Positions 5,669 through 63,232 of a stretch of DNA of 64,000 nucleotides are shown here, one piece after another. This DNA comes from Thermoanaerobaculia bacterium (lineage in GTDB: Bacteria; Acidobacteriota; Thermoanaerobaculia; Multivoradales; Multivoraceae). Where the stretch lies: positions 1,600,001 through 1,664,000 of the forward strand of contig OY761158.1 of the NCBI GenBank assembly GCA_963664405.1. Direction: 5' to 3'. Position 1 is the stretch's first letter. Each line of letters opens with the position of its first letter. The notes below the pieces were generated by a model. The model made no database searches, was not told where the DNA came from, and saw only the letters and a list, made by a program, of their open reading frames with translations. The position numbers were made by a program, and so were the translations under genes.

Positions 5669-6048
5669 TCGTCCTCGACACCTCGGTGTTGATCGACGCT
5701 CTGACCGGCCCCTGCCGGGCGACTCCCTATCTACGGGCTGCCTTCGCCGCCGGCGAGCGCATTGTCCTCCCCTCTCTCGTTCTCTACGAATGGCTGCGCG
5801 GGCCACGCCATGCCGAAGAGCTCGAGGCGCAGGAAGAGCTCTTCCCTCGCAGCGAGGGTCTCGCGTTCGGAAGCGAAGAAGCTGCGCTGGCTGCCGAGCT
5901 CTATTCAACCGTCAAACGCCCACGCGGTCGTGAGATCGATTTGGCGATCGCCGCCACGACGATTCGCAACGTCGCGCAACTGTGGACCGCCAACCTGGCG
6001 GACTTTCGCGACATTCCCGGACTCGATCTCTACACGCCTACCCACTGA
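5665..6048 (+). CDS. VapC-family PIN toxin
   Basis: MIVLDTSVLID, IDLAIAA, TANLADF. Confidence 0.9.
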   Translation: MIVLDTSVLIDALTGPCRATPYLRAAFAAGERIVLPSLVLYEWLRGPRHAEELEAQEELFPRSEGLAFGSEEAALAAELYSTVKRPRGREIDLAIAATTIRNVAQLWTANLADFRDIPGLDLYTPTH

Positions 6049-8601: not shown

Positions 8602-9732
8602 ATGTCAGACCCCTTTCTCCGCGATCTCCGAGTCGTTGCCCTCGAGCAGGCGGTCGCGGCGCCGCTGTGCAGCCGACGCCTAGCCCAGGCCGGCGCGGAT
8701 GTGATCAAGATCGAGCGTCCGGAAGGCGACTTCGCCCGCTTCTACGACACCGCGGTCCACGGAGAGAGTGCCTATTTCGTATGGCTGAACTACGGCAAGC
8801 GCTCGGTCGTCCTCGACTTCAGAACCGCCCAGGGGCTCGACGACCTTAAGGGGCTGATCCGTACCGCGGACGTCTTCATCCAGAACCTCAAGCCCGGGGC
8901 GCTGGCCCGAGCCGGTGTCGACCTCGAAGCCCTACGGGAAGCCAACCCGCGCCTCATCACCTGCACTGTGGCGGGATATGGAAGCACGGGGCCGAGTGCA
9001 AACAAGAAAGCCTACGATCTCTTGATCCAGGCCGAGACCGGACTCTCCGCCATCACCGGTAGCCCACACGCTCCGGGGCGAGTAGGGGTATCGGTCTGCG
9101 ATATCGCGACGGGGATGTTCGCGTACGAAGCCATCCTCGGTGCCCTGCTCCAGCGCGTCACGACCGAAAGAGGGGAAGCGATCGAGGTCACTCTCTTCGA
9201 CGCGATGGCGGAGTGGATGGCTGTGCCTTATCTACTCGAGCGCTACGGCGGCACGGCACCTCAGCGCGTTGGACTCGCCCATCCGGGTATCGCCCCCTAC
9301 GGAGTGTTCCGCAGCGCCGACGATGTGGCCTTCGTGCTCGCGATTCAAAACGAGAGGGAGTGGAAAAGTCTGTGTGAAGCGGTCTTGAAGGACGCAGACT
9401 TCGCGACCGCCCCGCGATGCTCTTCGAATGAGCTGCGAGTGACGAACCGTGACTTCATCGACAGCACAGTGCAAACCGAGGTTGGAAAGCTGGTCTACGA
9501 GCCGTTGAGCGCGCTGCTGACCACCGCCGATATCGCCCATGCACCGGTGAACGAGGTCGGCGCGCTGAAGCACCATCCGGACTTCGCGACCGACCCCATC
9601 CTCGTCAACGGAGCGAAAGTGGAGCTGCCACACACTCCTGGGCATGCCCCCAACCCGAACCCGCCCTCGGTGCCGAGGCTCGGCGAGCACACCGCCGCCG
9701 TTCTGCGGGAGCTCGCTGAGCTTCTGGCATGA
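8602..9732 (+). CDS. Family III CoA-transferase (CaiB/BaiF)
   Basis: EQAVAAP, GADVIKIERPEGD, NYGKRS, YDLLIQAETG. Confidence 0.92.
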   Translation: MSDPFLRDLRVVALEQAVAAPLCSRRLAQAGADVIKIERPEGDFARFYDTAVHGESAYFVWLNYGKRSVVLDFRTAQGLDDLKGLIRTADVFIQNLKPGALARAGVDLEALREANPRLITCTVAGYGSTGPSANKKAYDLLIQAETGLSAITGSPHAPGRVGVSVCDIATGMFAYEAILGALLQRVTTERGEAIEVTLFDAMAEWMAVPYLLERYGGTAPQRVGLAHPGIAPYGVFRSADDVAFVLAIQNEREWKSLCEAVLKDADFATAPRCSSNELRVTNRDFIDSTVQTEVGKLVYEPLSALLTTADIAHAPVNEVGALKHHPDFATDPILVNGAKVELPHTPGHAPNPNPPSVPRLGEHTAAVLRELAELLA

Positions 9733-9740
9733 GCCGTCTA

Positions 9741-9906
9741 CTAGACCAGCGTTTCCAAAGTTCGTGCTGCATAGCTCGAGCTCATTCTGTTCGCTGGCTA
9801 GGCGCGCCGACGCAGGCATATTGGGCAATATGTCGAGGAGGCGCAACGCCGGCAGCGGGCAGAAGGGGCCGAGATATGTGCGCGAACTTTGGAAACGCTG
9901 GTCTAG
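9741..9906. mobile_element. Family A palindromic element copy 1 (166 bp, CTAG at both ends)
   Basis: 24-bp terminal inverted repeat CTAGACCAGCGTTTCCAAAGTTCG; right CTAG supplies the stop of 9903..10109. Confidence 0.92.
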
Positions 9907-10109
9907 AGCTCGAAGGGCTCACCCCGAGTCGTTCCGCGAGCTCGAAGCGCCTCGTAGGTACCCTGTCCCGCGGCACGAGACGCAGCGAGCACCTGCTCCA
10001 AGGATTCGCTTTGCTGGCGAAGGTCGCGTAGACGGGCCACGTCGACTTCGTCAGTGGGCACATCGCTGTCGAGGTCGAGGGGCTCAGAGGCTACGGTGAA
10101 TCTCTTCAT
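9903..10109 (-). CDS. Small protein coupled to nucleotidyltransferase gene
   Basis: 68 aa; overlaps the 3' end of the upstream NTase gene. Confidence 0.55.
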   Translation of the reverse strand: MKRFTVASEPLDLDSDVPTDEVDVARLRDLRQQSESLEQVLAASRAAGQGTYEALRARGTTRGEPFEL

Positions 10110-14369: not shown

Positions 14370-14460
14370 ACAAGATAGCAACACGCCACGGTCCAGCTGT
14401 TCTTCTGACTCCATGGTGTAGGCTCTGCGGCCTATGACTCGAAAAAGGGGAGAGACCGTG

Positions 14461-16161
14461 ATGGCAATGCTCCGCGTCCGCGCCCTAGACCAGCGTTTCC
14501 AAAGTTCGTGCTGCATAGCTCGAGGTCATTCTGTTCGCTGGCCAGGCGCGCCGACGCAGGCATATTGGGCAATATGTCGAGGAGGCGAAACGCCGCCAGC
14601 GGGCAGAAGGGGCCGAGATATGTGCGCGAACTTTGGAAGCGCTGGTCTAGTACTCGTTCTGGGGTTGATCTCGGCGCTCGGCTGTCAACCTGCGGAACAA
14701 CCCACGGAGACGGGCGCCCCTCCCGCGGCGGCGGTGGCGGCCGCGCCGAATATCATCGTCATCCTCGCCGACGATCTCGGCTATGGCGACATCGGAGCCT
14801 ACGGTTCCCAGATCCCGACCCCCAACATCGACCAGCTGGCGCGGGACGGCGTTCGGCTGACCTCCGGCCATGTTTCGGCAGCGGTATGCAGCCCGACACG
14901 CGCCGGCCTCCACACCGGCCGCTACCAGAATCGCTTCGGTTGGGAGTACAACCCCTTCTACTTCAGCGGCGCCGACAGAGGTCCCGATGCCGACCTCGGT
15001 CTTCCTCTCGACCAGGCCACACTCGCCAACCTCTTTCAGGATGCCGGCTACACCACCGGCCTGATCGGCAAGTGGCATCTCGGTGTGGCTGAGCAGTACC
15101 ACCCGATGAACCGTGGCTTCGACGAGTTTTACGGAATCCTGGGAGGCGGTACCAGCTACATCGACTCCCGCCTTCCCGGCACTCACGAGTGGCCCGAGGA
15201 GGGTGCCCCGACCACCCGCAGCGGAGACTCGCGCGTCATCCGCGACGGCTTCGAGGTGATCGAGGTCGAGGAGTACCTGACCGACGTCTTCGCCGAGAAG
15301 GCGGTCGACTTCATCGATCGCCATGCGGACGAGCGCTTCCTACTGATGCTGACGCCGAATACCCCACACACGCCCCTTCAGGCGACGGACGAGTACATGG
15401 AGCGGGTGCAGCACATCGAGGGAGAGGGCGCACGCCTCTACGCCGCGATGGTGGTCTCACTCGACGATTACGTCGGTGATGTCGTCGCCGCCCTACGCAA
15501 GCACGACCTTGAGCGCGACACGATCGTCGTCTTTCTCTCCGACAACGGCTGCATCAACTACATGAGCGAGCCGATCTGCACCAACGCCCCCCTGGCTGGC
15601 AACAAGCGCTTCCACCTCGAAGGGGGCCATCGCGTTCCTTTCATCGTCAAATGGCCGGCAGGCCTTCCTCAGGGCGAGGTCTACGATGAGCACGCGATCG
15701 CTCTCGACCTCTACGCGACCTTCGCAGCTGCCAGCGGTCTCGAAGCCAGCTCTCCCGACAGCGTGAACCTGCTTCCCCATCTACGTGGTGAGGCCTCCGA
15801 ACCGCCACACGAGTTCCTCTACTGGCGCGCGGCACCCAACATCGCGATCCTGTGGGGGAAGTGGAAGATGTGGAAGGTCAACAACACCGATCTCGAGATC
15901 CCTCCGGGGCCGCCGGGCCAACAAGTACCGCTGCAGGAATGGCCACCCCACTCTTCGCCCCTAGGCCAGGCCACGGTTCTCTATGACCTTTCCACCGACA
16001 TCGGCGAGACCACGAATGTCGCCGACCAGCATCCCGAGATCGTCGAGCGTCTGGAGAGCGAGCTCGAAGCGTGGGAGGAGACGCTCTCCGAGCCACTCTG
16101 GGTCAACCGCCGCTCGACCTTGCATGAACTGCACGGTCAGACTGTGCACCTCTTCTTCTAA
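14461..16161 (+). CDS. Lipoprotein sulfatase with 54-aa in-frame repeat insertion in its signal peptide
   Basis: ADDLG, CSPTRA, GKWHLG; ALGC lipobox; tandem paralog follows. Confidence 0.88.
   Translation: MAMLRVRALDQRFQSSCCIARGHSVRWPGAPTQAYWAICRGGETPPAGRRGRDMCANFGSAGLVLVLGLISALGCQPAEQPTETGAPPAAAVAAAPNIIVILADDLGYGDIGAYGSQIPTPNIDQLARDGVRLTSGHVSAAVCSPTRAGLHTGRYQNRFGWEYNPFYFSGADRGPDADLGLPLDQATLANLFQDAGYTTGLIGKWHLGVAEQYHPMNRGFDEFYGILGGGTSYIDSRLPGTHEWPEEGAPTTRSGDSRVIRDGFEVIEVEEYLTDVFAEKAVDFIDRHADERFLLMLTPNTPHTPLQATDEYMERVQHIEGEGARLYAAMVVSLDDYVGDVVAALRKHDLERDTIVVFLSDNGCINYMSEPICTNAPLAGNKRFHLEGGHRVPFIVKWPAGLPQGEVYDEHAIALDLYATFAAASGLEASSPDSVNLLPHLRGEASEPPHEFLYWRAAPNIAILWGKWKMWKVNNTDLEIPPGPPGQQVPLQEWPPHSSPLGQATVLYDLSTDIGETTNVADQHPEIVERLESELEAWEETLSEPLWVNRRSTLHELHGQTVHLFF
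14485..14650. mobile_element. Family A element copy 2 (in frame in sulfatase)
   Basis: 166 bp, CTAG ends, near-identical to 9741..9906. Confidence 0.92.
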
Positions 16162-17707: not shown

Positions 17708-17908
17708 CTTTCGTATAGTTTTCGAAAATGATCGCTATCATTTCCGAAATCTAGTTGCTGTTTGGCGCCGAGGACGGCGCACTCGTGCGTTGCTTCCTAT
17801 TCGCTCCGGAAAACGGCGCGGGCCGATTCGGGGGTCTTAGGGCCGGACGCCCACGTCCCTCGGAGCGAATAGGAAACAGCGCCTGAAAGCTAACTAGTTG
17901 TTGTCTAG
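17704..17908. repeat. Family B repeat copy
   Basis: AAATGATCGCTATCATTT hairpin plus TTTGGCGCCGAGGACGGCGCACT..CCTATTCGCTCCG, with inverted CGGAGCGAATAGG. Confidence 0.85.
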
Positions 17909-17992: not shown

Positions 17993-18997
17993 GTGGAGCG
18001 AATCTCAGGACTCTCGATCACCTTCTTTGTTGCGGCCTGCGCCGCCCCACCGGAAGCCGACCTCGACGACATACTAGGGGCGACGCCACCCGACTTGTCG
18101 GCTTACCAGAAATACGAGATCGAGTCCTCAGCCGAGGGCAACCTACAAGTCACTTTCCTCGGCGTCGCCACCCTGCTCTTCGACGACGGAGAGACGGCGA
18201 TCATGACCGACGGCTACTTCACTCGCATCAGCCGCGAGCAGATGGCTCTGGGCGATCCGATCGCGCCGGATCAAGCTTTGGTCGCGGCAGGTTTACAACG
18301 CGTCGGGGTCGATCGACTCGCCGCCGTCATGACGGTGCATTCGCACTTCGATCACTCTCTGGACACCCCGGTCGTCGCGAAGCTCACCGGCGCCACCGTC
18401 GTCGGCTCGCGCTCCACCGCGAACATCGCCCGCGGTTGGGGACTCGACGAGACGCAGATCAAAGAAGTCGTGAACGGGGACTCAATGCGTTTCGGTGACT
18501 TCGAAGTGACCTTCATCCAGTCGAAGCACTACGCGCTCCCCGCAGCCGCTGCCACCTCGATCGGCAAAGAGATCCTCTCGCCCCTGGTGCCGCCACAGCC
18601 GACCACCGCCTATGTCGAAGGCGGCAGTTACTCCATCCTGATCGACCATCCCGTACAGAGCTTTCTGGTGCAGGGCAGCGCGGGGTCCCTGCCGGGCGCC
18701 TTGGACGCCTATTCCGCGGACATAGTCCTGCTCGGCATCGGCGGCCTGGGGCGCATGGAGCGGGACTACAAGGAAGGCTATTGGCGAGACGTGGTCGAGG
18801 CTGTAGATGCGAAGGTCGTAATTCCGATTCACTTCGACGACTTCACTCGCTCCGCCACTGCACCCCTCGGTGCGATGCCCGATGTGCCGCAGGCTTTCGA
18901 CTTTCTGATCGACAAGGCGGGTGAGGCCAATGTGGAGTTTGCGCTGCTGCCCTACTACCTACCCGCGGCGCCCCGTCCGTCCCAGACCGCCCCTTGA
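17993..18997 (+). CDS. MBL-fold metallo-hydrolase, probable lipoprotein
   Basis: HSHFDH, IPIHFDDF. Confidence 0.85.
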   Translation: MERISGLSITFFVAACAAPPEADLDDILGATPPDLSAYQKYEIESSAEGNLQVTFLGVATLLFDDGETAIMTDGYFTRISREQMALGDPIAPDQALVAAGLQRVGVDRLAAVMTVHSHFDHSLDTPVVAKLTGATVVGSRSTANIARGWGLDETQIKEVVNGDSMRFGDFEVTFIQSKHYALPAAAATSIGKEILSPLVPPQPTTAYVEGGSYSILIDHPVQSFLVQGSAGSLPGALDAYSADIVLLGIGGLGRMERDYKEGYWRDVVEAVDAKVVIPIHFDDFTRSATAPLGAMPDVPQAFDFLIDKAGEANVEFALLPYYLPAAPRPSQTAP

Positions 18998-19353
18998 TAG
19001 GCGTCCTGGATCGCCCGGTCTCGAGTCAGCAGCGGCACATCGTTGATCACCGCATGGCTGACGATGATGCGGTCGAATGGATCGCGAGTCCAATTCTGAT
19101 CACGAGCGGTGGTCGCCACCTGCTCGAAGGGCAAGTCGCATACGACCAGGCCCAAGGGCGCCCGCAGAGTAGCTAGAACTTCTTCAGCCGGCTTCCCGGT
19201 CCGTCCGATCTCATACAGATACTGAAGCTCCAGCCCCACCATCGGAGAGATCAACAGTTCATTGCCTTCGATCAGAGAACGGGCAAGGGCCGGTATCAGA
19301 TCGACGCGGCCGGCGTAGAGCCAGGCGACAACGTGGGTGTCGAGATAGATCAA
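18955..19353 (-). CDS. PIN toxin
   Basis: IYLDTHVVAW, RDPFDRII, TRD; TTG start overlaps antitoxin stop. Confidence 0.88.
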   Translation of the reverse strand: MIYLDTHVVAWLYAGRVDLIPALARSLIEGNELLISPMVGLELQYLYEIGRTGKPAEEVLATLRAPLGLVVCDLPFEQVATTARDQNWTRDPFDRIIVSHAVINDVPLLTRDRAIQDAYQGAVWDGRGAAGR

Positions 19354-19571
19354 GGCTTCCAGGCTTCCGACCAATCGATGTCGAGAAGATCTTCGGGCTC
19401 AGCGAGCAGATAGTCACGAGGCTCGAGCCGGTCGAGCTTGGCACGCCGCTCAAGCGGTACGACTCGTAGGATCTGACCGCGACGCTCCACCTCGAGTGGA
19501 ATGCCGGTCTCGAGAACTTGGTCGAGGAGGCGGTAGATGTCCTGTCGAAGGCTCGATGCTGTGACTGTCAT
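19350..19571 (-). CDS. Phd/YefM-type antitoxin
   Basis: TASSLRQDIYRLLDQV; GTAC-rich palindromes upstream (19612..19648). Confidence 0.8.
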   Translation of the reverse strand: MTVTASSLRQDIYRLLDQVLETGIPLEVERRGQILRVVPLERRAKLDRLEPRDYLLAEPEDLLDIDWSEAWKP

Positions 19572-20506: not shown

Positions 20507-20686
20507 CTAGTGTCCTGTATCAGTAGTTCGTCACACAACTCGCTGGCCCTTTTGGGCGCTGCCGTCGTTGGCTGGGCGCCCCCGCTCTCCTCGCAATATT
20601 GCCCAATATACCTTCGTCGTAGCGCCTTGGCAGCACCCAAAATGACTGCGCGATTTATGCAACGAACCACTGATACAGGACACTAG
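20507..20686. mobile_element. Family C palindromic element (180 bp, CTAG ends), sister of family A
   Basis: TIR CTAGTGTCCTGTATCAGT(A/G)GTTCGT; core aligns to the reverse complement of family A. Confidence 0.85.
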
Positions 20687-23333: not shown

Positions 23334-23741
23334 CTATTCACTCGCGTCTGTGCGCAGCACGGGTCCCGCCCAATCGAGAATGCGTTGGTCAGCCGTGGCC
23401 AGGACAGCTCCCTCGCGCAGGGCGGTGGCGACAATGATGCGGTCGGCGGGATCGGCGTGGAAGTCGGCCAGAGCCGCCGCTCGTGCACCGATATCTCCGA
23501 TGACCGCGATCTCCACCAGGCCGGCGCGAAGCAGTTTCGACCTCCAGGCGTCGAGATCGAGCGCCAGCGACACCCGACCCTTGCGTAGCAGGGTACCGAT
23601 CTCCCAGAAGCTGATGGCAGAGACCGAGAGCCCATCTTCCGCGAGCGCTCGGTCGAGTGCCAGACGCGCCTTCGGTCCCAGTCTCGAGCTTCCGCCGTCG
23701 AGCCAAAGCAGGACGTGGGTGTCGAGCAGGGTCATTGCCAA
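23334..23741 (-). CDS. PIN toxin
   Basis: LLDTHVLLW, SFWEI, DPADRII. Confidence 0.9.
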   Translation of the reverse strand: MAMTLLDTHVLLWLDGGSSRLGPKARLALDRALAEDGLSVSAISFWEIGTLLRKGRVSLALDLDAWRSKLLRAGLVEIAVIGDIGARAAALADFHADPADRIIVATALREGAVLATADQRILDWAGPVLRTDASE

Positions 23742-23771
23742 GCTCCTGCGACGAATGGAGCGTTCGACGAG

Positions 23772-24011
23772 CTACTCGGCATTCCCCCCGCTGGCCTCCC
23801 ACTCGTTCTCGATCGGGGAGACGACGTCGCCGTGAATCACGAGCTCCTTACGGTGGAGGCCGAAGAGGGTCTCTGGCTTCTCCAGATACGCGACCAACCG
23901 ACTCACCGGACGACCGTTCTTCGTGATCACGATGGACTCGTTGGTCTCTGCGACTTCGTCCATCAAGGCGAGACACTTGGATTTGAACTCGGACGCTTTG
24001 ATCTTCTTCAT
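23772..24011 (-). CDS. Phd/YefM antitoxin
   Basis: ASEFKSKCLALMDEV...ITKNGRPV. Confidence 0.9.
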   Translation of the reverse strand: MKKIKASEFKSKCLALMDEVAETNESIVITKNGRPVSRLVAYLEKPETLFGLHRKELVIHGDVVSPIENEWEASGGNAE

Positions 24012-24936: not shown

Positions 24937-25224
24937 GTGATTCGCTCGTTCGCGGACGGCAAGACTCGTCGGCTGTTCGAGGACGATCGAAGAAGAGGGT
25001 TTCGCGGTCTCGACTACGACCGAGCACTACTATTGCTTGACGCCCTGGATGCCGCGCGTTCCCTCGAGCCGCTACGAGCTCTGCAAGCGGTTCGGCTCCA
25101 CTCGCTGAAGGGTGGTCGCAAGGGGCAGCAAGCAATGACCGTGAACCGGCGCTGGAGGATCACTTTCAAGTTCGAGGAAGGCGATGCACAAGACGTGGCA
25201 ATCGAGGACTACCACAGGAGCTAG
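24937..25224 (+). CDS. higB: HigB (RelE/ParE-family) toxin
   Basis: MIRSFADGKT, RLHSLKG, WRITFKF, IEDYH. Confidence 0.88.
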   Translation: MIRSFADGKTRRLFEDDRRRGFRGLDYDRALLLLDALDAARSLEPLRALQAVRLHSLKGGRKGQQAMTVNRRWRITFKFEEGDAQDVAIEDYHRS

Positions 25225-25227
25225 CTG

Positions 25228-25515
25228 ATGACGAGAGTGAGAAGCCACCCGGGCCAGCTACTTCGCGCCGAGCTCGAAGCTCGAGAGATGAGTGCCAATC
25301 AGCTCGCTCTGGCACTGCGTGTGCCGGCGAATCGCATCACAGCCATCCTGCGTGGAGAGCGGTCCGTTACGGCGGAGACAGCGCTTCGGCTGGGGCGATA
25401 TCTGGGGACCGACGCCGCGTTCTGGATGAACCTCCAGACCGCCTACGACATCTCGCTGATCGATGCGGAGAGAGGGCATCTGATCGAAGAGGAAGTGCCC
25501 GCGCCCACAGCTTGA
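25228..25515 (+). CDS. higA: HigA HTH antitoxin
   Basis: HPGQLL, TAETALRL, FWMNLQ. Confidence 0.9.
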   Translation: MTRVRSHPGQLLRAELEAREMSANQLALALRVPANRITAILRGERSVTAETALRLGRYLGTDAAFWMNLQTAYDISLIDAERGHLIEEEVPAPTA

Positions 25516-25943: not shown

Positions 25944-26213
25944 GTGAAACCAACGAAAGAACGTCCCCAGAGACGCGAGTACCGAGCGAAGGTCTTCCGT
26001 AACGGGCGCAGCCAGGCGATACGCCTCCCCAAGGAGCTCCGATTCGATGAGCAAGAGAAGGAGGTTCGTGTGTGGCGGGAGCACGGACGCCTGGTAGTCG
26101 AATCGATCGACGAGTGGCCGGAGGACTTCTGGCGACTCTTCGGAAGCGTTCCTGATCTCGAGCTCCCCGAGCGAACGCCCCTCGCCGAGGCACGCGACCG
26201 CTTCAATCGGTGA
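25944..26213 (+). CDS. vapB: AbrB-type VapB antitoxin
   Basis: AKVFRNGRSQAIRLPKE. Confidence 0.9.
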   Translation: MKPTKERPQRREYRAKVFRNGRSQAIRLPKELRFDEQEKEVRVWREHGRLVVESIDEWPEDFWRLFGSVPDLELPERTPLAEARDRFNR

Positions 26214-26602
26214 GGTACCTCCTCGACACCGATACGGTGAGCTTCATCCTGCGCGGAGAGGGGAGGGTCGAAGACCACTTTCTTCGCCTCCGCCCGTCGG
26301 ACATCTGCACCAGTCCGATCGTCGTAGGAGAGATTGAGCTCGGCCTCGAACGGAGAAAGAACCCGAGGCTTCGACTGCTCGCTGAACGTCTCTTCGAGAT
26401 CTTGTCCGTCGCGCCTTACGACAGGGAGGCTGGCCAGCACTACGGCCGATTGGCAGCTTCCCTCCTGGCAACAGGAACCCCGATCGGGGTCGAGGACACG
26501 ATGGTCGCGGCCCACGCCCTGTCGTTGGGCCTGACTCTGGTCACTCACAACACCAGGCACTTTGAGCGAGTACCGGGGCTCAGGGTCGAGGACTGGTACT
26601 AG
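26210..26602 (+). CDS. vapC: VapC toxin
   Basis: YLLDTD, DTMVAAHA, VTHNTRHFERVPGL. Confidence 0.92.
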   Translation: MRYLLDTDTVSFILRGEGRVEDHFLRLRPSDICTSPIVVGEIELGLERRKNPRLRLLAERLFEILSVAPYDREAGQHYGRLAASLLATGTPIGVEDTMVAAHALSLGLTLVTHNTRHFERVPGLRVEDWY

Positions 26603-26763
26603 ACCAGCGTTTCCGAAGTTCGTGTACAGAGCTCGAGGTCATTCTGTTCGCTGGCAAGGCGCGCCGACGCAGGCATAGCAGGGACTATGTCGAGGAGGCG
26701 CAACGCCGCCAGCGGGCAGAAGGGGCCGAGAACTGTGCGCGAACTTCGGAAACGCTGGTCTAG
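26599..26763. mobile_element. Family A element copy 3 (165 bp, on vapC stop codon)
   Basis: CTAG ends; compensatory changes in both TIR arms. Confidence 0.9.
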
Positions 26764-26824: not shown

Positions 26825-27456
26825 ATGCTCGCTCACCGCCGGGGAGCGCCACTCAACGCTGCCGGGCTTGCCCGTAGCCTGGCGGTGGACGGCAAGACCA
26901 TCGCGCGGTATCTCGACCCATGGTGGACCTGCTTCGGCCACCGCTTCCTGCGTGTTATCGATGTGCCGAGCGATACATCCGGTGCTTCGAAAGCCGCCTG
27001 TGAGATCTGGGGAACGACGCTCGAAGGCGAGCGCTGGACGCAGCCTGTGAGCATCCCGATGACCGGCTTTCGCCAGGACTGCTATCCGGCAGATCGATGT
27101 GATCCGCGATCAGACCCTCGTCCACAATCGCCAAAACCTCGGCCAGGACGTGAGCTTCAGCTTCGTCGACAACGAGGTCGGGCCTGGGGAGCACTACTAC
27201 TATGTGAGGGTGCTTCAAAACGACGGCAACCTCGCTTGGTCATCTCCCATCTGGGTGACGAATCGTTAGCCCCAGGGCAGAGCGCCAATAAGCCCGCGGT
27301 TCTCGATCTCGAGAGTCCGGTCGATTTGGAGAAACTCGCGAACACGGCCGGCTATCTCGAGTTCGATCCGATCGACTCGTGATCTTCGATGAGCACCCAC
27401 GAACAGGCGCCGAATGCCGCTTTGATGCCAACTCCGATCTTGCGATCGCGATCCGG
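26825..27456 (+). pseudogene. Mosaic of fragments homologous to the 54-60 kb genes
   Basis: Blocks match ~59746-59850, ~55706-55851, ~56953-57144, ~59285-59378 and 57145-57176. Confidence 0.85.
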
Positions 27457-27503: not shown

Positions 27504-27920
27504 ATGAGCGGCGGAGTCAGCGACACCAAAACCATCGCGGCGGCGCTCTCGGATGAGCTCGCTTCGGTGGGCGACGTGGTCGCAGCGTATCTCTTCGGGA
27601 GTGTCGCTCGAGGTCGGCACCACCGCGCGAGCGATGTCGATGTCGCTCTCCTCCTGGCGGAAGATCCGCCTGGTACCCTGGCAGGGCTAAGGCTCGACCT
27701 GGCGGCGAAGCTCGGCGACCGTCTCGGCCTGCCGGTGCAGGTCGTGCTGCTGAATCAGGCACCGGCGGACCTCGCTCACCGCGTTCTACGCGACGGCCAG
27801 CTCCTGATCGACCGCGATCCCGGCAGGCGTATTCGTTTCGAGGTTCGCTCCCGCAACGAGTACTTCGACCTCCATCTGATTCGGCAGCGCTATAGGCACG
27901 GCAGCAGGAGAGCGTCGTGA
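27504..27920 (+). CDS. MNT nucleotidyltransferase antitoxin (type VII TA)
   Basis: YLFGSVARG...SDVDVA. Confidence 0.88.
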   Translation: MSGGVSDTKTIAAALSDELASVGDVVAAYLFGSVARGRHHRASDVDVALLLAEDPPGTLAGLRLDLAAKLGDRLGLPVQVVLLNQAPADLAHRVLRDGQLLIDRDPGRRIRFEVRSRNEYFDLHLIRQRYRHGSRRAS

Positions 27921-28345
27921 CCGATGGGGAGCTGGTTGCGAAGAAGCTCGCCGAGATCGAGACCCGCGTTCGCGAGCTCGAACGGCTGGCCCAACCCGAG
28001 CTGATGGCGACAGACCTGAAGGAGCAGCGTTTCATCCTGATGACCCTGCAGCTGGCGATCCAGGCTGCTCTCGACGTGGCCTCGCACATCGTCTCCGACG
28101 AGCAGCTCGGCGAGCCGGAGCGCAACCGAGACTTGTTCGGTCTCCTCACCGCAGCAGGCTGGCTGACCGAGGAGCTGGGGGGCCGCCTGCAGCAGATGGC
28201 GGGTTTTCGCAACGTCCTCGTTCACGAGTACATGCGAACCGATCTCGCGGTTGTGCGCGACGTTCTGGAGAACCGACTCGAAGATCTACTGAGCTTCAGT
28301 GCGGCAGTGAGACAGCGGCTTCCTCCGTCGAGCAAGCGCGGTTAG
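27917..28345 (+). CDS. HEPN (DUF86) RNase toxin
   Basis: GFRNVLVHEY (RX4H motif). Confidence 0.9.
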   Translation: MTDGELVAKKLAEIETRVRELERLAQPELMATDLKEQRFILMTLQLAIQAALDVASHIVSDEQLGEPERNRDLFGLLTAAGWLTEELGGRLQQMAGFRNVLVHEYMRTDLAVVRDVLENRLEDLLSFSAAVRQRLPPSSKRG

Positions 28346-41943: not shown

Positions 41944-43140
41944 ATGACTAGACCAGCGTTTCCAAAGTTCGTGTGCAATAGCTCGAGGTCATTCTGTTCG
42001 CTGGCCAGGCGCGCCGACGCAGGCATATTGGGCAATATGTCGAGGAGGCGAAACGCCGTCAGCGGACAGAAGGGGCCGAGATATGTGCGCGAACTTTGGA
42101 AACGCTCGTCTAGCGCACAATTGAAAATCAACGCCGTGCTCGTCGCACTAGCCGCCTGTTTGACCGCCGGGCTGCTGCACGCTGCAGATCCCATCACCAC
42201 AGACACCCACCGCTTCATCGAAATTAGAAACGGGATTTACCTGGCGCAAACGACGGCGTCGGTGTTCAACAGCAACTCGTTGGTTGTCGTCAACGACCAG
42301 GATGTCGTGGTGGTGGATTCCCATGCCACTCCGGCCAAAGCACGCGATCTCGTCGCTTCGATCAAGGCGATCACCCCGAAGCCCGTGACCGCGCTGATCA
42401 ACTCCCACCATCATTGGGACCACACCAACGGCAATCAGGAGTTCGCCGACATTCCGATCATCGGCCATGAGTTCACCTATATGAAACTGGCGATCGCGCC
42501 GCGTGAAGAGGTCAGCCGTCACCGTGGTCTCAGCCGCCAGAATGGAGAATTGGCTCAGTTGAGGGAACAGATCGCGTCCGTCGAGGACGACGAGGAGAAA
42601 AAACGACTCGAGACCCAAGCGGCGGTGCTCGGCGCGCACCTTGGCGACTTCGACGAGGTCGATCCGACGCCACCCAATGTGACTATCAGCGACCGCATGA
42701 CGCTCTATCGAGAGAAGCGCGAGATCCAGGTAATCTTCACTGGGCGCGCTCATACAGGGGGTGACGTCGTCGTCTACTTTCCCCAGGACAGGCTCGTCTT
42801 CACCGGCGATATGGCGCTAGGAGGGCCGTCATTCATGGGCGACGGGTTCGTCGATGAGTGGCCCCAGACCATGGAGAATCTCAAAGCGCTCGATTTCGAC
42901 ATCTTCGTTCCTGGCCACGGCAAGCCGGTCACCGACTTGAGAAGAATCGATCTCGTTCAGGAGTACTACAGAGACCTTTGGAAGAAGACGGCCGCCAAGC
43001 ATGCCGCAGGGGTGAGCCCGGAGGAGGCTGCCCGCACCATCGACATGACCAATCACACCGAGATCCCCATCCCAGAGCCGGGCGTGAACCTCCTGGCAGT
43101 AGAACGGATGTACACTCGGCTGGAGAGGCTCCAGAAATGA
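41944..43140 (+). CDS. MBL-fold hydrolase (cyclase-like) with 54-aa in-frame repeat insertion after codon 2
   Basis: SHHHWDH, AHTGGD, FTGD, VPGHG. Confidence 0.85.
   Translation: MTRPAFPKFVCNSSRSFCSLARRADAGILGNMSRRRNAVSGQKGPRYVRELWKRSSSAQLKINAVLVALAACLTAGLLHAADPITTDTHRFIEIRNGIYLAQTTASVFNSNSLVVVNDQDVVVVDSHATPAKARDLVASIKAITPKPVTALINSHHHWDHTNGNQEFADIPIIGHEFTYMKLAIAPREEVSRHRGLSRQNGELAQLREQIASVEDDEEKKRLETQAAVLGAHLGDFDEVDPTPPNVTISDRMTLYREKREIQVIFTGRAHTGGDVVVYFPQDRLVFTGDMALGGPSFMGDGFVDEWPQTMENLKALDFDIFVPGHGKPVTDLRRIDLVQEYYRDLWKKTAAKHAAGVSPEEAARTIDMTNHTEIPIPEPGVNLLAVERMYTRLERLQK
41948..42113. mobile_element. Family A element copy 4 (in frame)
   Basis: 166 bp, CTAG ends. Confidence 0.92.
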
Positions 43141-43230
43141 TGGCTATCATTTCCTCCGCCTCTAGTTGTCTTTTGGCGCCGAGGACGGCGCACTTTGAGC
43201 TTGCTTCCTATTCGCTCCGGGAAACGGCTC
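43126..43230. repeat. Family B repeat copy (supplies TGA stop of MBL gene)
   Basis: Near reverse complement of ~45135..45238. Confidence 0.85.
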
Positions 43231-43394: not shown

Positions 43395-44867
43395 ATGAGC
43401 AAGAAGCAGACCCGCCGGGAGTTTCTACAGCAGTCTTCTCGCCTGGTAGCCGGCACGGCTCTGGCGGGGCAGGCAGCGACACGCGCCGGTGCCCAACAGG
43501 AGAGGCCGCCCAACCTCCTCTTCTTCTTCCCCGACCAGCACCGTCCCGACTGGATCGGCTACGGCCCCAACGCGCTGCCCATCTCGACTCCGAACCTCGC
43601 GCGCCTGGCTCGCACCGGCGTGAGCTTCAACCGGGCCGTCGTCTCCTCGCCCGTCTGCGCGCCCTCGCGTGCCTGCCTCGCCGGCGGACGCGAGTACGAC
43701 CGCTGCGGCGTGCGCAAGAACGGCATCCCGTATCCACGAGATCGCACCACCTACTACCGTCTGCTGCGCGACGCGGGCTACCACACCATGGGAGTCGGCA
43801 AGCTCGACCTGGCACAAGGCACCAGGGACTGGGGCTCGATGCACGCCGACGCCTGGGGCTTTTCGGCAATGATCAACAACGCCGGCAAGGCCGCGGGCAT
43901 GGGGGCCTACCTCAGTGACCCGGTCGGACCCAAGGGCCCTTACTACGAATATCTCGACTCTCTCGAGCCACCTCGAGGCCGCGCCTGCGCCGAAGACCTT
44001 GCACGGCGCAGCTCCAACCGTCCCGACGGCTGGTGGGGTGCCGGTACCCCTTCGCCGCTCGGAAACGACGCTTACTGCGACAACTGGATCGCGCGCAACG
44101 GCTTGAAGCTGCTCCGGGAGGCACCGGCCGAGCGGCCGTGGCATCTGGTCATCAACTTCGTCGGCCCGCACCCCTCGTTCGACATCACCCGCGAGATGGA
44201 ACGAACTGTCCGTGGTCCGGATCGGATCATCAAAGGGCTGCCGACGCCGCATCACTACCACAAGGGGACGTTCAGCGCTGAAATGCACGTACGCTCGAGG
44301 CAAAACTACACCGCCATGATCGAGAACATCGACGGCTGGCTCGGCCGTTACATCGACATGCTCGAAGAGACCGGTCAGCTGGAGAACACGATCATCGTCT
44401 ACAGCTCCGATCATGGCGAGATGTTGGGAGACCACGCCCGCTGGGGCAAGTCAGTGCCCTATCAGGCGTCCCTCGGAGTGCCGCTCCTGGCCGCGGGGCC
44501 CGGCATCCGCGCCGGCTTCGAAAGCGACGCGCTAGTGACGATCATGGATCTGGCAGCGACCTTTCTCGACTACGGTGGGGTCAACGTTCCCTCCGATATG
44601 GACAGCCGCTCGCTGCGACCGCTGCTTGAGGGCCGGACCGACAACCACCGCGACGCTTTGCTCTCCGGTCTGTTGACTCCTGAGGGCGACTGGCGACTGG
44701 TGTGGGACGGCCGCTACAAACTAGTACGAGACTTCGGCGACGAGCAATATCAGCTCTTTGACCTCGAGGCCGACCCTCTCGAGACTCTCAACCTGGCTTC
44801 TCGCGAGGCCGGCCGCGCGCGCCGCATGAAAGACTGGCTACCGGAGGGCTTCGAGGAGTCCGCCTAG
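43395..44867 (+). CDS. Tat-exported sulfatase
   Basis: TRREFL, CAPSRA, SDHGEMLGDH. Confidence 0.92.
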   Translation: MSKKQTRREFLQQSSRLVAGTALAGQAATRAGAQQERPPNLLFFFPDQHRPDWIGYGPNALPISTPNLARLARTGVSFNRAVVSSPVCAPSRACLAGGREYDRCGVRKNGIPYPRDRTTYYRLLRDAGYHTMGVGKLDLAQGTRDWGSMHADAWGFSAMINNAGKAAGMGAYLSDPVGPKGPYYEYLDSLEPPRGRACAEDLARRSSNRPDGWWGAGTPSPLGNDAYCDNWIARNGLKLLREAPAERPWHLVINFVGPHPSFDITREMERTVRGPDRIIKGLPTPHHYHKGTFSAEMHVRSRQNYTAMIENIDGWLGRYIDMLEETGQLENTIIVYSSDHGEMLGDHARWGKSVPYQASLGVPLLAAGPGIRAGFESDALVTIMDLAATFLDYGGVNVPSDMDSRSLRPLLEGRTDNHRDALLSGLLTPEGDWRLVWDGRYKLVRDFGDEQYQLFDLEADPLETLNLASREAGRARRMKDWLPEGFEESA

Positions 44868-45240
44868 CCGAGGAAAAATGATGAGTATCATTCCCCTCGG
44901 CTAGCTATCTTTTGGCGCCGAGGACGGCGCACTTTGAGCTTGCTTCTTATTCGCTCCGGGTATCGTTGTCGTTTGAGGCTAGAGGAGTCTGCGCGGCAGA
45001 AAACGAAACGGCGCTGCCCGAAGCGGATAAGAAGCAAGTCCCGAGTGCGCCGTCCTCGGCGCCAAAAGATAACTAGCCGCAGGAAATGATACCCATCATT
45101 TCCGGAGGCTAGGAGCGTGTCCGAGTATTCGGCCAGAGCCGTTTCCCGGAGCGAATAGGAAGCAACGCCTGAGTGCGCCGTCCTCGGCGCCAAAAGACAA
45201 CTAGGCGGAGGAAATGATAGCCATCATTTCTGGAGCCTAG
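44864..45240. repeat. Family B cluster: three hairpin+module units, the first two forming a ~250-bp inverted repeat
   Basis: Hairpins at 44864-44904, 45073-45112 and 45201-45240, each bounded by CTAG. Confidence 0.9.
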
Positions 45241-46334
45241 CGGCCGTGCCTCTTGTACCACTGCTCCTCCAACATTCGCGCCCCGAGCAGGGTACCTCGC
45301 ATCGAGTAGTTGCCCTCGTGGCAGGCAACTTCGTAGATGAGATCGTCGCTCCGCGGCATCGGTAGCGAACCGCCGTAGGGGGCGGCATAGTCGTGGTCGT
45401 CGATCCTGAACTCGTAGAACAGGGTGCCGGCGTCCTGCCGCGTGAAGCGCTCGACGACGTGGAGCCCCTCGTGGGGCGTGTCCCAAGAGCGAAGGAAATT
45501 AGTGGTGTCGACCACCAGGGTGTCGCCCTCCCACCATCCGATCGAGTCGCCCGAAAAGGAACGGACTCGAGGAGGCGCATGCTCGACGGGGCGCCCCTCC
45601 GAGTCGAGGCGGATAACGCGAGCCCAGTGCATCTGCTCGACCTGGATGACGACGTGATTCTCGGTTTGGATGATCTTCTGGAAGTTGTTGTAGGGCGCTG
45701 GCAGCATAGGCACGGTGCGCGATCCAGCGTAGATACAGCGCGTGCCTAGGCCTAGCATCTCGGGATGGTCGAAGATCCGATGGTCCCCAAAGGTGTAGGT
45801 CAGGGCCTTACCGTCGGGGCCGATAACGCCCTCCGCGAGCCACCAGGCACTGTCGGGATCCGAGGGCCCATTGTAGTCGTTGAAGGCGAAAGGGAGCCGA
45901 TGCTTCCTCCCCTGTGCGCTCAAAGACGGCATGCGACCGTCCGCTGGCTCGGTGAGGATCGAGTTGCGGTACTTCCCGTCGACGCTAAAGGCCGTTTCGC
46001 CCCCGTCGATAAATACCTTCCAGCCACCTCCGACGTTCTGAAACTCGTTCTTACCTCCTTTGACCGGCGCAACGCGATTCGGATCGCTGTCGGAGAGCCA
46101 GAACCTCCTCCATTCCGCCAGGGCCTCCTCGATCTCCCTCGCACCTTCGGCGCTCATGTGGGGATCGTTGCCGTACTTTGCACTACGTGTGATGGGCGTC
46201 CGTGTCTTGATGTCGTAGGTTCCCGACAGATCCGGCTTGCCGCTCAGCATGCGCGGAAGGTCGTCCTCGGCACCCAGAAGCGGGGCACACGGGAGGCCAA
46301 GAAGTACAACAACCGCCAGGAATTTCGTCATCAT
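45237..46334 (-). CDS. ACHEGN protein, copy 3
   Basis: GKPDLSG, LGTRC, EQMHW, YEVACHEGNY. Confidence 0.85.
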   Translation of the reverse strand: MMTKFLAVVVLLGLPCAPLLGAEDDLPRMLSGKPDLSGTYDIKTRTPITRSAKYGNDPHMSAEGAREIEEALAEWRRFWLSDSDPNRVAPVKGGKNEFQNVGGGWKVFIDGGETAFSVDGKYRNSILTEPADGRMPSLSAQGRKHRLPFAFNDYNGPSDPDSAWWLAEGVIGPDGKALTYTFGDHRIFDHPEMLGLGTRCIYAGSRTVPMLPAPYNNFQKIIQTENHVVIQVEQMHWARVIRLDSEGRPVEHAPPRVRSFSGDSIGWWEGDTLVVDTTNFLRSWDTPHEGLHVVERFTRQDAGTLFYEFRIDDHDYAAPYGGSLPMPRSDDLIYEVACHEGNYSMRGTLLGARMLEEQWYKRHGR

Positions 46335-53036: not shown

Positions 53037-53049
53037 TACAGGACACTAG
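53033..53049. mobile_element. Solitary right end of family C element
   Basis: CTGATACAGGACACTAG identical to 20670..20686. Confidence 0.75.
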
Positions 53050-62648: not shown

Positions 62649-63232
62649 GGTTGGTCTCCCGCCGTTATCGCTGCCAGAAAGTGCGCCGGCGAGCTGACGG
62701 TGACCTCGGACATCTTGAAGTCCTTCACATTTCTCGTCAGGATGATGTCGGCAGCCACCGCTTTGCCTGCACTCGCGACGACAGCATCCTCGAAGTCACG
62801 GATTCTCGACGACGTGGCGTCCTCGAGCACACTGCGATTGACCGGTGCGACTTCGAGGATCGAGAGCAAGACACTGACATGCTTTCGAGCTTCTCGTCTG
62901 CCAGCCGCCTTCGTACCTAGACCAGCGTTTCCGAAGTTCGAGTCGCCTAGCTCGAGGTCATTCTGTTCGCTGGCAAGGCGCGCCGACGCAGGCATATTGG
63001 GAATCTGTCGAGGAGGCGCAACGCCGCCAGCGGGCAGAAGGGACCGAGATAGGTGTCGCGAACTTTGGAAACGCTGGCCTAGGTAGAAGATCGTGGTGAC
63101 GGAGGTGGCGCAGACGTAGCCCCGCAGCGAGCCCTCTTCCGCCATGGAAAGCACCTGCGAGGACGAGGCTGAGAAAGGCTCGCGATCCAGGAGAACGTCG
63201 AGCAGAACATCGGTATCGAAAAGTACGTTCAC
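62645..63232 (-). CDS. PIN toxin carrying 54-aa in-frame repeat insertion
   Basis: FDTDVLLD, DFEDA, TRNVKDF; 141 aa without the insert. Confidence 0.85.
   Translation of the reverse strand: MNVLFDTDVLLDVLLDREPFSASSSQVLSMAEEGSLRGYVCATSVTTIFYLGQRFQSSRHLSRSLLPAGGVAPPRQIPNMPASARLASEQNDLELGDSNFGNAGLGTKAAGRREARKHVSVLLSILEVAPVNRSVLEDATSSRIRDFEDAVVASAGKAVAADIILTRNVKDFKMSEVTVSSPAHFLAAITAGDQP
62917..63082. mobile_element. Family A element copy 5 (in frame, read from the opposite strand)
   Basis: 166 bp, CTAG ends, internal -1/+1 indels. Confidence 0.9.

What the first reader, a model, noticed from the sequence alone, without database searches (positions are those of the whole stretch)
26599..26763. 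Covariation and strand-biased G-T pairs point to a folded single-stranded form
Seen: copy 3 changes both TIR arms together (CCAAAG/CTTTGG to CCGAAG/CTTCGG), and the inner hairpin CATAT..ATATG becomes CATAG..CTATG. The inner stem TTCTGTTCGCTG/CAGCGGGCAGAA, and single TIR changes in copies 2 and 5, are G-T compatible on the same strand. Two other TIR mismatches are not. Inference: the whole element folds into a long rod as RNA or ssDNA, more than transposase binding to the ends would require.
Basis: partly seen in the sequence, partly recalled or inferred. Interest (0 to 1): 0.7.

Follow-up and report, generated by a model that had tools for sequence, protein, structure and literature searches.

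The report
Hairpin-forming IS630-type miniature transposon
This is one copy of a 165-base non-autonomous mobile element (a MITE moved by an IS630-type transposase) that keeps a long hairpin shape through paired mutations, as other bacterial MITEs do: a clean example of a known kind.

Summary
Window 26599-26763 is one of five ~166-nt copies, plus one diverged copy. The element has 24-nt terminal inverted repeats and ends in CTAG on both sides.

An IS630-family insertion sequence in a fetched locus (L009) shares the first 27 nt of its end with the element. Reading across three in-ORF copies shows a TA duplication inside CTAG. It is therefore an IS630-type MITE.

In 15 homologous copies, 40 of 59 predicted pairs show double changes that keep the pair. 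Shuffles gave 13.8±2.6 (0 of 500 reached 40) and slid registers gave 16-20. So the whole rod is maintained, not only the transposase-binding ends.

Strand bias is real but moderately supported:
- The element-sense strand folds better in 15 of 15 copies.
- There are 7 shared G·T sites against 0 shared A·C sites.
- Parsimony gives 21 WC-to-G·T events against 9 WC-to-A·C.
- Low-frequency variants are balanced, 20 against 17.

RNA, ssDNA and DNA-level concerted evolution cannot be separated here. Long-hairpin MITEs with compensatory changes are already described (bcr1, Correia, RUP), so this is a new member of a known kind. In passing: copies sit in frame inside a sulfatase, a metallo-beta-lactamase-fold gene and a PIN gene.

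The parts
26599..26763 (+). Copy 3 of the MITE (the finding), 165 nt. It lies directly after vapC, whose TAG stop sits inside the element's first CTAG.
   Evidence: 180.2 bits with model R1. Fold -120.1 kcal/mol, z -13.0.
26599..26622 (+). Left terminal inverted repeat of copy 3 (CTAG + 20 nt), with G at position 17.
   Evidence: 1 mismatch to the 24-nt consensus. Same end as the IS630-family IS in L009.
26740..26763 (-). Right terminal inverted repeat of copy 3. It carries the matching change, giving the G17-C151 pair.
26672..26691 (+). Apical hairpin of copy 3 (GGCATAG-CAGGGA-CTATGTC). It has the G-C pair where other window copies have U-A. L001 shares the same loop variant.
9741..9906 (+). 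Copy 1, 166 nt, 9 nt after the stop of a CoA-transferase gene (8602-9732 +). Sense orientation.
14485..14650 (+). Copy 2, 166 nt. It lies inside the signal-peptide part of a sulfatase ORF (14434-16161 +), in frame (frame +0), and the ORF stays open.
   Evidence: Pfam Sulfatase 3.2e-59.
41948..42113 (+). Copy 4, 166 nt. It is inserted 4 nt after the ATG of a secreted metallo-beta-lactamase-fold gene, in frame (frame +2).
62917..63082 (+). Copy 5, 166 nt. It lies inside a PIN_3 toxin ORF (62645-63232 -), antisense and in frame. The Pfam match to PIN_3 is split into two stretches.
20507..20686 (-). Diverged copy, 180 nt. It shares the interior but has different, mutually matching ends (CTAGTGTCCTGTATCAG). 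It lies between two + genes, in antisense orientation.
   Evidence: (78.6 bits).
26210..26602 (+). vapC-like PIN-domain gene whose stop codon lies in the CTAG target of copy 3.
   Evidence: PIN 8.2e-13.

Best explanation
The element is a non-autonomous miniature transposon (MITE).

Mobility. It is moved in trans by an IS630-family DDE transposase that recognises its 24-27-nt terminal inverted repeats. It inserts at TA inside CTAG and adds 162 bp net. This is shown in part and inferred in part.

The rod. Its whole length is an imperfect palindrome that folds into a rod of about 70 pairs. The family keeps that rod by compensatory substitution in the lineages that gave rise to the copies. This is shown.

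Where the rod acts. I take the selected form to be a single-stranded hairpin of the element-sense strand, most probably the RNA made when the element is transcribed within host messages. The clearest copies lie inside ORFs or within 10 nt of a stop codon, and most are in sense orientation. There the rod would act as a long double-stranded RNA segment that could be cut by RNase III or could protect a 3' end, as described for Correia and ERIC elements. This step is inferred and untested.

My sub-confidences: IS630-type MITE about 0.95; rod maintained by compensation about 0.85; sense-strand RNA as the selected form about 0.4.
For: MITE identity:
- Five ~166-nt copies plus one diverged copy lie in 64 kb, with no transposase between the ends.
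- L009 1497-2780 is a 1284-bp IS flanked by CTAG. It encodes a 392-aa protein with DDE_3, HTH_32 and HTH_29 domains.
- Relatives of that protein at about 70% identity are annotated as IS630 family transposase.
- Its end is identical to the element's first 27 nt. A Mesorhizobium relative has a similar end.
- In copies 2, 4, 5 and in L012, the host ORF reads straight across the element. The flanks on either side of one TA join into a normal signal peptide or PIN sequence.

Rod:
- 40 of 59 pairs carry double changes, 0 of 500 shuffles reach that, and slid registers give 16-20.
- Parsimony gives 53 WC-to-WC double events on the tree.
- Transversion swaps occur at interior pairs of A4: 47/135 (CG 8, GC 3, UA 2), 57/125 (GC 7, UA 3, CG 2) and 71/97 (CG 10, GC 3).

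Strand:
- The sense strand folds better in 15 of 15 copies.
- The gap shrinks from about 25 to about 3-6 kcal/mol in most copies (up to about 11 in L001 and L002b) when G·U is forbidden, and it persists with DNA parameters.
- There are 7 shared G·T sites against 0 shared A·C, 87 G·T cells against 13 A·C cells in helices, and 21 against 9 events.
- GC skew of the window's + strand is slightly negative, so local mutational skew does not explain G excess on that strand.

Transcribed context: 7 sense copies (c1, c2, c3, c4, L012, L013, L001) against 2 antisense (c5, 20507 copy) lie inside an ORF or within 10 nt of a stop.
Against: - Low-frequency G·T and A·C sites are balanced, 20 against 17. Much of the bias is a handful of old sites inherited by all copies.
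- 7 against 2 (or 8 against 3 with looser criteria) is not a significant orientation bias. It is also confounded, because two sense frames but only one antisense frame are free of stops.
- No promoter-like or terminator-like site was found in or next to copy 1.
- There is no Rfam match.
- A rod of about -110 kcal/mol placed 4 nt after a start codon (copy 4) should hinder translation rather than help the host.
- Only 15 copies were available.
- No expression data exist here.
Confidence: 0.45

Rival explanations
1. The rod is a by-product of origin and of DNA-level concerted evolution, not of selection on a folded strand. The MITE arose as an inverted duplication of one IS end. Its arms are then kept alike by intramolecular template switching during replication (quasipalindrome correction, recalled from the literature) or by gene conversion between copies. 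This copies a change in one arm onto the other.
For: - The autonomous IS in L009 has unlike ends (CTAGACCAGCGTTTCCA against CTAGACCATCAATTCCA on the other side, 81% complementary). Both ends of the MITE are of the first type.
- Changes come in patches. The apical region of copy 3 differs at 5 of 8 neighbouring positions and matches the L001 variant.
- Modules are mosaic. L001 keeps the ends (23/24) and core (45/60) but has unrelated arms (10/31, 7/27) that still pair. L002b and the 20507 copy keep the interior but have other ends (12-13/24).
- Low-frequency G·T against A·C sites are 20 against 17.
Against: - A symmetric DNA process should not leave 7 shared G·T sites and no shared A·C site. 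It should not give 21 against 9 events either.
- It should also erase bulges and internal loops. These are as conserved as the paired columns in the core (0.85 against 0.87 mean identity).
Confidence: 0.3
2. The rod acts in DNA during transposition. A hairpin in single-stranded DNA, or a cruciform in supercoiled DNA, pairs the two terminal repeats with each other. This brings both cleavage sites together, which helps a 160-bp element that is too stiff to loop. Selection then acts on the mobility of master copies.
For: - Compensated differences are mostly shared by subfamilies rather than private to one copy. Examples are 17/165, 47/135 and 57/125 in A4, and copy 3 shares its apical variant with L001. 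They therefore arose in proliferating lineages.
- The centre of the palindrome (CATATTGGGCAATATG) is AT-rich in a 60% G+C element. AT-rich centres favour hairpin nucleation; this point is recalled, not tested.
- The sense/antisense gap persists with DNA parameters, for example -64.9 against -52.6 for copy 1.
Against: - IS630/Tc1-mariner transposition is described as double-strand cut-and-paste without a need for hairpin DNA (recalled).
- A cruciform involves both strands, so it would not favour G·T on one strand.
- Chromosomal orientation is mixed on one long contig: L013 +, L002a +, L012 -. This argues against a lagging-strand ssDNA effect.
Confidence: 0.15
3. The element is a host structured non-coding RNA gene or riboregulator that merely looks like a transposon.
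For: - The fold is very stable and the covariation is strong.
- The core is conserved even in copies with other ends.
Against: - There is no Rfam family at gathering score in the window, and none at E up to 1 around copy 1.
- No promoter-like or terminator-like site was found.
- Copies sit inside unrelated ORFs, in frame.
- The ends match an IS630-family IS and are flanked by the CTAG/TA target.
- Core conservation in the odd copies is expected, because they were found by core similarity.
Confidence: 0.03

Closest known systems
RUP (repeat unit of pneumococcus), a MITE tied to IS630-Spn1
   Same: - It is a short non-autonomous element whose terminal repeats match an IS630-family IS.
- It inserts at TA.
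- Its transcript folds into a long stem-loop.
Source: Delihas 2008, PMC2229807, passages read.
   Different: RUP is 107 bp, AT-rich, has short contiguous repeats and is reported as intergenic. This element is 166 bp and 60% G+C, has 24-27-nt repeats, comes from Acidobacteriota-type genomes, and is often inside ORFs.
Correia / NEMIS elements of Neisseria
   Same: - Size of about 105-155 bp, roughly 24-bp terminal repeats and TA at the termini.
- The transcript forms a long hairpin.
- Some variants carry open frames fused to host ORFs (PMC2229807).
- RNase III cuts transcripts at the paired repeats (PMC10969869, passages read).
   Different: RNase III processing, an IHF site and promoter activity are shown for Correia. 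None of these was tested here, and no promoter-like site was found. The sequences are unrelated.
bcr1 repeats of the Bacillus cereus group
   Same: A ~155-bp mobile repeat that is transcribed, with compensatory base changes reported to maintain the RNA structure (Delihas 2011, PMC3184786, passage read).
   Different: bcr1 folds into a two-arm cruciform-like shape and has 5-bp direct repeats. Here there is a single rod and a TA duplication.
Rickettsia palindromic elements (RPE) and the Yersinia YPAL element
   Same: - They are palindromic repeats of about 150-168 bp found in frame inside protein genes.
- YPAL contributes to predicted signal peptides (PMC2229807; PMC10969869).
- Here 3 of 5 canonical window copies and L012 are in frame. 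Three of those four lie in signal-peptide regions.
   Different: No transposase partner is established for RPEs. Here an IS630-family partner type is identified. The frequency of in-frame copies here rests on a handful of cases.
Stowaway MITEs of plants (Tc1/mariner-derived; recalled, no call)
   Same: TA target duplication, a Tc1/mariner/IS630 superfamily partner and hairpin-forming potential.
   Different: They are eukaryotic. Their hairpins feed small-RNA pathways that bacteria lack.

Membership tests
Bacterial MITE (non-autonomous IS derivative) | Small (about 100-300 bp), multi-copy, with no transposase gene between the ends | tested here: met
   There are five 165-166-nt copies plus one 180-nt copy in 64 kb. 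Nine further homologous copies lie in the fetched loci.
Bacterial MITE (non-autonomous IS derivative) | Terminal inverted repeats | tested here: met
   The 24-nt repeats are present at all 10 ends with 0-1 mismatches, against 0.00 expected by chance.
Bacterial MITE (non-autonomous IS derivative) | Target-site duplication, shown by comparing filled and empty sites | tested here: inconclusive
   No empty orthologous site was available. In copies 2, 4, 5 and in L012 the host reading frame continues across the element. The flanks on either side of a single TA give a normal signal peptide or PIN sequence. All copies but L012, L006a, L006b and the cut L001 are bounded by CTAG on both sides. This is consistent with a TA duplication in CTAG but is a reconstruction.
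IS630 / Tc1-mariner-mobilised element | Terminal repeats match those of an autonomous IS630-family IS | tested here: met
   The IS at L009 1497-2780 encodes a protein with DDE_3, HTH_32 and HTH_29 domains. Homologues are annotated as IS630 family transposase. Its end equals the element's first 27 nt. That IS sits in an Alphaproteobacteria MAG, not in the window's genome.
IS630 / Tc1-mariner-mobilised element | A cognate transposase is present in the same genome and mobilises the element | not testable with these tools
   No IS630-type gene or solitary canonical end lies in the window. The rest of the genome was not available.
Curated structured RNA family (Rfam 15) | Match to a covariance model at the gathering score | tested here: not met
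   There were 0 matches in the whole window. There were 0 matches at E up to 1 in 9700-9950.
Correia-like RNase III-processed MITE | Long double-stranded stem formed by the paired terminal repeats in RNA | tested here: met
   This is predicted only. The MFE rods have 62-64 Watson-Crick and 5-7 G·U pairs in the window copies.
Correia-like RNase III-processed MITE | Co-transcription with host genes and RNase III cleavage | not testable with these tools
   No expression or cleavage data are available. Position inside ORFs or next to stop codons makes transcription likely for most window copies.
RPE-like in-frame palindromic element | Insertion inside protein-coding genes with the reading frame kept open | tested here: met
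   The host genes are:
- Copy 2: sulfatase ORF 14434-16161, 575 aa, open.
- Copy 4: metallo-beta-lactamase-fold ORF.
- Copy 5: PIN_3 ORF.
- L012: sulfatase ORF 739-1677.
The canonical 166-nt copies have 0 stops in frames +0, +2 and -0.
REP/BIME elements (RAYT-associated) | Palindromes of about 20-40 nt in clusters, associated with a tyrosine transposase | tested here: not met
   The element is 166 nt, dispersed as single units, and carries IS630-type ends. The defining features of REPs are recalled.

The most novel reading that the evidence does not exclude
The interior of the element may be a functional single-stranded module in its own right, not filler between transposase sites.

- Its sense strand is kept foldable through G·U-tolerant compensatory evolution.
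- The same core appears in elements with different arms (L001) and different terminal repeats (L002b, window 20507-20686).

This could mean that a hairpin RNA or ssDNA module is exchanged among MITEs served by different IS630-type transposases. The reason would be that it promotes their spread or survival, for example by hairpin-mediated pairing of the ends or by RNA-level damping of insertion damage.
Probability: 0.15. Interest if true: 0.6.

Novelty: new member of a known kind. Interest (0 to 1): 0.3.

Why it matters
The finding adds an Acidobacteriota-type, G+C-rich family to the bacterial MITEs. It is an unusually clean case in which covariation runs along the whole rod and one strand carries the wobble pairs.

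If the strand bias holds in a genome-wide set, it would argue that MITE hairpins are selected as single strands rather than being mere palindromic DNA. That question is still open for bacterial MITEs.

For annotation, the family matters because copies sit in frame inside real genes: a sulfatase, a metallo-beta-lactamase-fold gene and a PIN toxin. They can mislead gene callers. My own composition-based gene calls missed the 575-aa sulfatase ORF.

Tried and rejected
- **Rfam.** Nothing was found in the whole window at gathering score or around copy 1 at E up to 1.
- **Promoter and terminator scan.** Nothing was found around copy 1.
- **Plasmid collection.** A search with copy 1 in distant mode found no match. 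Phage and E. coli collections were not searched.
  - 8 loci held homologous copies.
  - 3 (L003, L009, L011) held the full IS.
  - L007 and L008 held an end followed by other sequence.
  - L004 has no CTAG and no partner arm and looks like a chance match.
- **Dropped row.** Model R1 also hit window 44907-45070 at 52.4 bits. It does not align in sequence and belongs to another palindromic family, so I dropped it before alignment A4 and all counts on A4.
- **Core conservation.** I considered reading it as a sign of function. I rejected that as evidence because the odd copies were found through core similarity.
- **Chromosome-strand bias.** All five canonical window copies are on +, but orientation is mixed on contig CAXWPL010000005.1.
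- **Element-borne start codons.** In-frame ATGs exist in copies 2 and 4 but are not conserved in copies 3, 5 or L012. I make no claim from them.
- **Frame +0 peptide search.** Searching longer proteins gave 4 hits among 30 candidates. This is too few for an orientation statistic.
- **Composition-based gene calls.** My heuristic calls were wrong around copy 2. I corrected them by translation and Pfam.

Full report
**What is at the coordinates.**
Window 26599-26763 is one copy of a dispersed repeat of about 166 nt.
- A repeat search found five copies in direct orientation: 9741-9906, 14485-14650, 26599-26763, 41948-42113 and 62917-63082.
- A 24-nt end, CTAGACCAGCGTTTCCAAAGTTCG, occurs at all ten ends with 0-1 mismatches, against 0.00 expected by chance.
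  - G17-C151 in copy 3 against A-U in copies 1, 2 and 4;
  - G81-C88 in its apical hairpin against U-A;
  - U·G pairs at 50/119 and 51/118 of the inner stem;
  - U12·G156 in copy 2 and G17·U151 in copy 5;
  - two incompatible mismatches, C7·C161 in copy 4 and A5·C163 in copy 5.
- Two more double changes exist: 31/137 in copy 5 and 32/136 in copy 3.
- The + strand of copy 3 folds into one rod at -120.1 kcal/mol (z -13.0). The - strand folds at -95.7 (z -11.1).

**What kind of element it is.**
They come from MAGs labelled Acidobacteriota or Vicinamibacteria, Alphaproteobacteria, Bacteroidales and 'uncultured bacterium'.
- In three loci of the Alphaproteobacteria MAG (L003, L009, L011), the same end continues into a full insertion sequence.
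- L009 1497-2780 is 1284 bp and bounded by CTAG on both sides.
- It encodes a 392-aa protein with DDE_3, HTH_32 and HTH_29 domains.
- Relatives of that protein at about 70% identity on Mesorhizobium and Bradyrhizobium plasmids are annotated as IS630 family transposase. The Mesorhizobium copy ends in a similar repeat.
- The element shares 27 nt with that IS end and nothing further.
- IS630 is known to insert at TA within CTAG. That statement is recalled, not from a call.

Here, four copies sit inside ORFs that read straight through them.
- Copy 2 lies in a 575-aa sulfatase ORF, 14434-16161.
- Copy 4 lies 4 nt after the ATG of a metallo-beta-lactamase-fold gene.
- Copy 5 lies in a PIN_3 ORF on the other strand.
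- The L012 copy lies in another sulfatase.
- In each case the flanks on either side of a single TA continue as a normal signal peptide or PIN sequence. This fits a TA duplication and a net insertion of 162 bp, or 54 codons.
- No true empty site was available, so this remains a reconstruction.

I conclude that the element is an IS630-type MITE. No IS630-type gene lies in the window.

**Is the rod conserved beyond the ends?**
An HMM and a covariance model built from the five copies found 16 places in the 101,573 bases held. One of them, window 44907-45070, does not align in sequence and was dropped. That left 15 copies in alignment A4.
- RNAalifold predicts 59 pairs, and 40 have at least one copy with both sides changed and the pair kept.
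- Shuffling partners among sequences gives 13.8±2.6 such pairs, and 0 of 500 shuffles reach 40. Sliding the partner by 1-3 columns gives 16-20.
- Cells paired are 91.9%, against 34.8-43.0% when slid.
- With the five window copies alone the figures are 4 against 1.0±0.9 (5 of 500) and 0-1 when slid.
- Double changes include transversion swaps deep in the interior: 47/135 (CG 8, GC 3, UA 2), 57/125 (GC 7, UA 3, CG 2) and 71/97 (CG 10, GC 3).
- A rough parsimony count on a FastTree tree gives 53 WC-to-WC double events. Single-sided events to a mismatch or wobble total 61: 31 transversion, 21 G·T and 9 A·C.

So the pairing is maintained along the whole element. Transposase binding to 24-27 nt cannot explain this.

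**Strand bias.**
- The element-sense strand folds better than its complement in 15 of 15 copies, by 13.8-27.9 kcal/mol in 14 of them.
- With G·U pairs forbidden the gap falls to about 3-6 kcal/mol in most copies. With DNA parameters it persists, for example -64.9 against -52.6 for copy 1.
- A strand-symmetric alignment of each copy against its own reverse complement gives 88 G·T and 21 A·C cells.
- Seven G·T sites are shared by five or more copies, and no A·C site is shared by more than three. A 7:0 split has a two-sided binomial p of about 0.016 (my arithmetic).
- In the predicted helices the cells are 87 G·T against 13 A·C. Inferred events are 21 WC-to-G·T against 9 WC-to-A·C, p about 0.04 two-sided.
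- Against this, low-frequency sites are balanced at 20 G·T against 17 A·C. Many of those lie in the most diverged, worst-aligned copies or in internal loops.
- The window's + strand has slightly negative GC skew, so local skew does not explain the G excess of the sense strand (G 56, C 42 in copy 1).
- A second palindromic family in the same window shows a smaller gap: -117.7 against -106.9.

I rate the strand bias as real but only moderately supported, because the copies are related by descent.

**Context and orientation.**
- Among copies inside an ORF or within 10 nt of a stop codon, 7 are sense: c1, c2, c3, c4, L012, L013 and L001.
- Two are antisense: c5 and the 20507 copy.
- Adding L006a (sense, 44 nt upstream of a gene) and L005 (antisense) gives 8 against 3.
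- Four copies are ambiguous.
- The split is not significant. It is also confounded, because frames +0, +2 and -0 are stop-free in canonical copies while -2 has one stop.
- Three copies (c3, L013, L001) lie where the host TAG stop is part of the CTAG target, and all three are sense.

**Mosaic structure.**
- L001 keeps the ends (23/24) and core (45/60) but has unrelated arms (10/31, 7/27) that still pair.
- L002b and the window copy at 20507-20686 keep the interior but have other ends that match each other (12-13/24 to the canonical end).
- The variant ends resemble the end of the Mesorhizobium IS630 relative.
- This points to exchange of contiguous central segments among related MITEs, or to switching of transposase partner.
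- Because these copies were found through interior similarity, core conservation cannot be read as evidence of function.

**How it most likely works.**
- Shown: a non-autonomous element with IS630-type ends, and full-length pairing kept by compensated change.
- Inferred: mobilisation in trans by an IS630-family transposase at TA in CTAG.
- Inferred with less confidence (about 0.4): the selected form is the sense-strand hairpin in RNA. Most copies are in transcribed places and wobble pairs are concentrated on that strand. The rod would then be a long dsRNA segment in host messages.

Rivals:
- Palindromic origin plus DNA-level concerted evolution, at 0.3. This is supported by the two like ends of the MITE against the unlike ends of the IS, by patchy changes, and by the balance of rare G·T and A·C sites.
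- A DNA hairpin or cruciform that pairs the ends during transposition, at 0.15.
- A host RNA gene, at 0.03.

**Comparison with what is known.**
Passages I read in two reviews by Delihas (PMC2229807; PMC3184786) and in a 2024 review (PMC10969869) state the following:
- bacterial MITEs of 100-200 bp give transcripts with long, stable stem-loops;
- RUP is tied to IS630-Spn1 and TA targets;
- compensatory changes maintain the bcr1 RNA structure;
- RNase III cleaves Correia-containing transcripts at the paired repeats;
- RPE, YPAL and others are found in frame within genes, sometimes forming signal peptides.

The present family therefore fits a known kind in every tested respect. I found no paper on this family in three searches. 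I judged this only from the listings of the 20, 15 and 12 papers shown. A survey of MITEs in 183,232 genomes (PMC11602168) appeared in the listing. I did not read it or its supplements, so the family may be catalogued there.

**Verdict.**
- The novelty is a new member of a known kind.
- Interest is modest.

Noticed in passing
window 14434-16161 (+), element at 14485-14650: A 575-aa sulfatase ORF reads straight through MITE copy 2. The element sits in the lipoprotein-type signal-peptide region, and the flanks either side of it continue as one signal peptide. My composition-based gene calls had wrongly placed minus-strand ORFs here.
   Followed up: yes
window 41944-43140 (+), element at 41948-42113: MITE copy 4 is inserted 4 nt after the ATG of a secreted metallo-beta-lactamase-fold gene, in frame. 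The element supplies an in-frame internal ATG followed by a basic stretch, ahead of the original hydrophobic signal core.
   Followed up: partly
window 62645-63232 (-), element at 62917-63082: MITE copy 5 lies inside a PIN_3 toxin ORF, antisense and in frame. It adds about 54 residues (aa 51-106) and splits the Pfam match into two stretches. The upstream gene (63229-63465) is a DUF6364 protein, the likely antitoxin partner.
   Followed up: partly
L012 739-1677 (-); protein P0007: A sulfatase in an Acidobacteriota MAG, about 55-60% identical by my eye estimate, carries the same MITE in its signal-peptide region in the same frame but at a slightly different spot. A DUF3604 protein (P0007, 661 aa) starts with half an element ahead of its signal peptide. 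Insertions near the N-termini of secreted enzymes seem to recur.
   Followed up: partly
window 44864-45241; also 17748-17882, 43161-43216; L013 1702-1759: A second, unrelated palindromic MITE-like family. It has 90-nt arms, is 86% complementary, is bounded by CTAG, and folds at -117.7 kcal/mol for 44906-45073. A partial tandem copy is present, and relatives occur elsewhere in the window and next to the L013 copy.
   Followed up: partly
window 44864-44904, 45073-45112, 45202-45241: Three hairpins of about 40 nt, each bounded by CTAG on both sides (GGAAATGAT..ATCATTTCC type). They flank the second palindromic family.
   Followed up: no
window 20507-20686 (-) and 53033-53049 (-): A diverged copy has different, mutually matching ends (CTAGTGTCCTGTATCAG). 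It lies between an HpcH-type aldolase gene and a 2-hydroxyacid dehydrogenase gene. A solitary 17-nt end of the same variant lies at a gene boundary at 53033-53049.
   Followed up: partly
L013 1497-1675 and window 20507-20686: These two copies have different terminal repeats but share a 13-nt G+C-rich insertion (GCGGGGGCGCC core) at the same place in the core. The longer form may be ancestral.
   Followed up: no
window 1480-1881, 5665-6048, 18955-19571, 23334-24011, 24937-25515, 25944-26602, 27504-28345, 62645-63465: Type II toxin-antitoxin genes are unusually dense. There are seven PIN or PIN_3 genes, Phd/YefM and MazE-like antitoxins, HigB/HigA, and a nucleotidyltransferase/HepT pair. They lie among many sulfatase and PQQ-propeller genes.
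   Followed up: no
window 26923-27274: The stretch just downstream of copy 3 is 90-94% identical to two parts (55697-55852, 56941-57145) of the 946-aa gene at 54303-57140. It looks like a gene fragment, so this neighbourhood has been rearranged.
   Followed up: no
L003, L009, L011 (one Alphaproteobacteria MAG) against Acidobacteriota-type loci: A 27-nt IS630-type end is identical between a full IS in an Alphaproteobacteria MAG and MITEs in Acidobacteriota or Vicinamibacteria MAGs. This could reflect transfer across phyla or a binning error.
   Followed up: no
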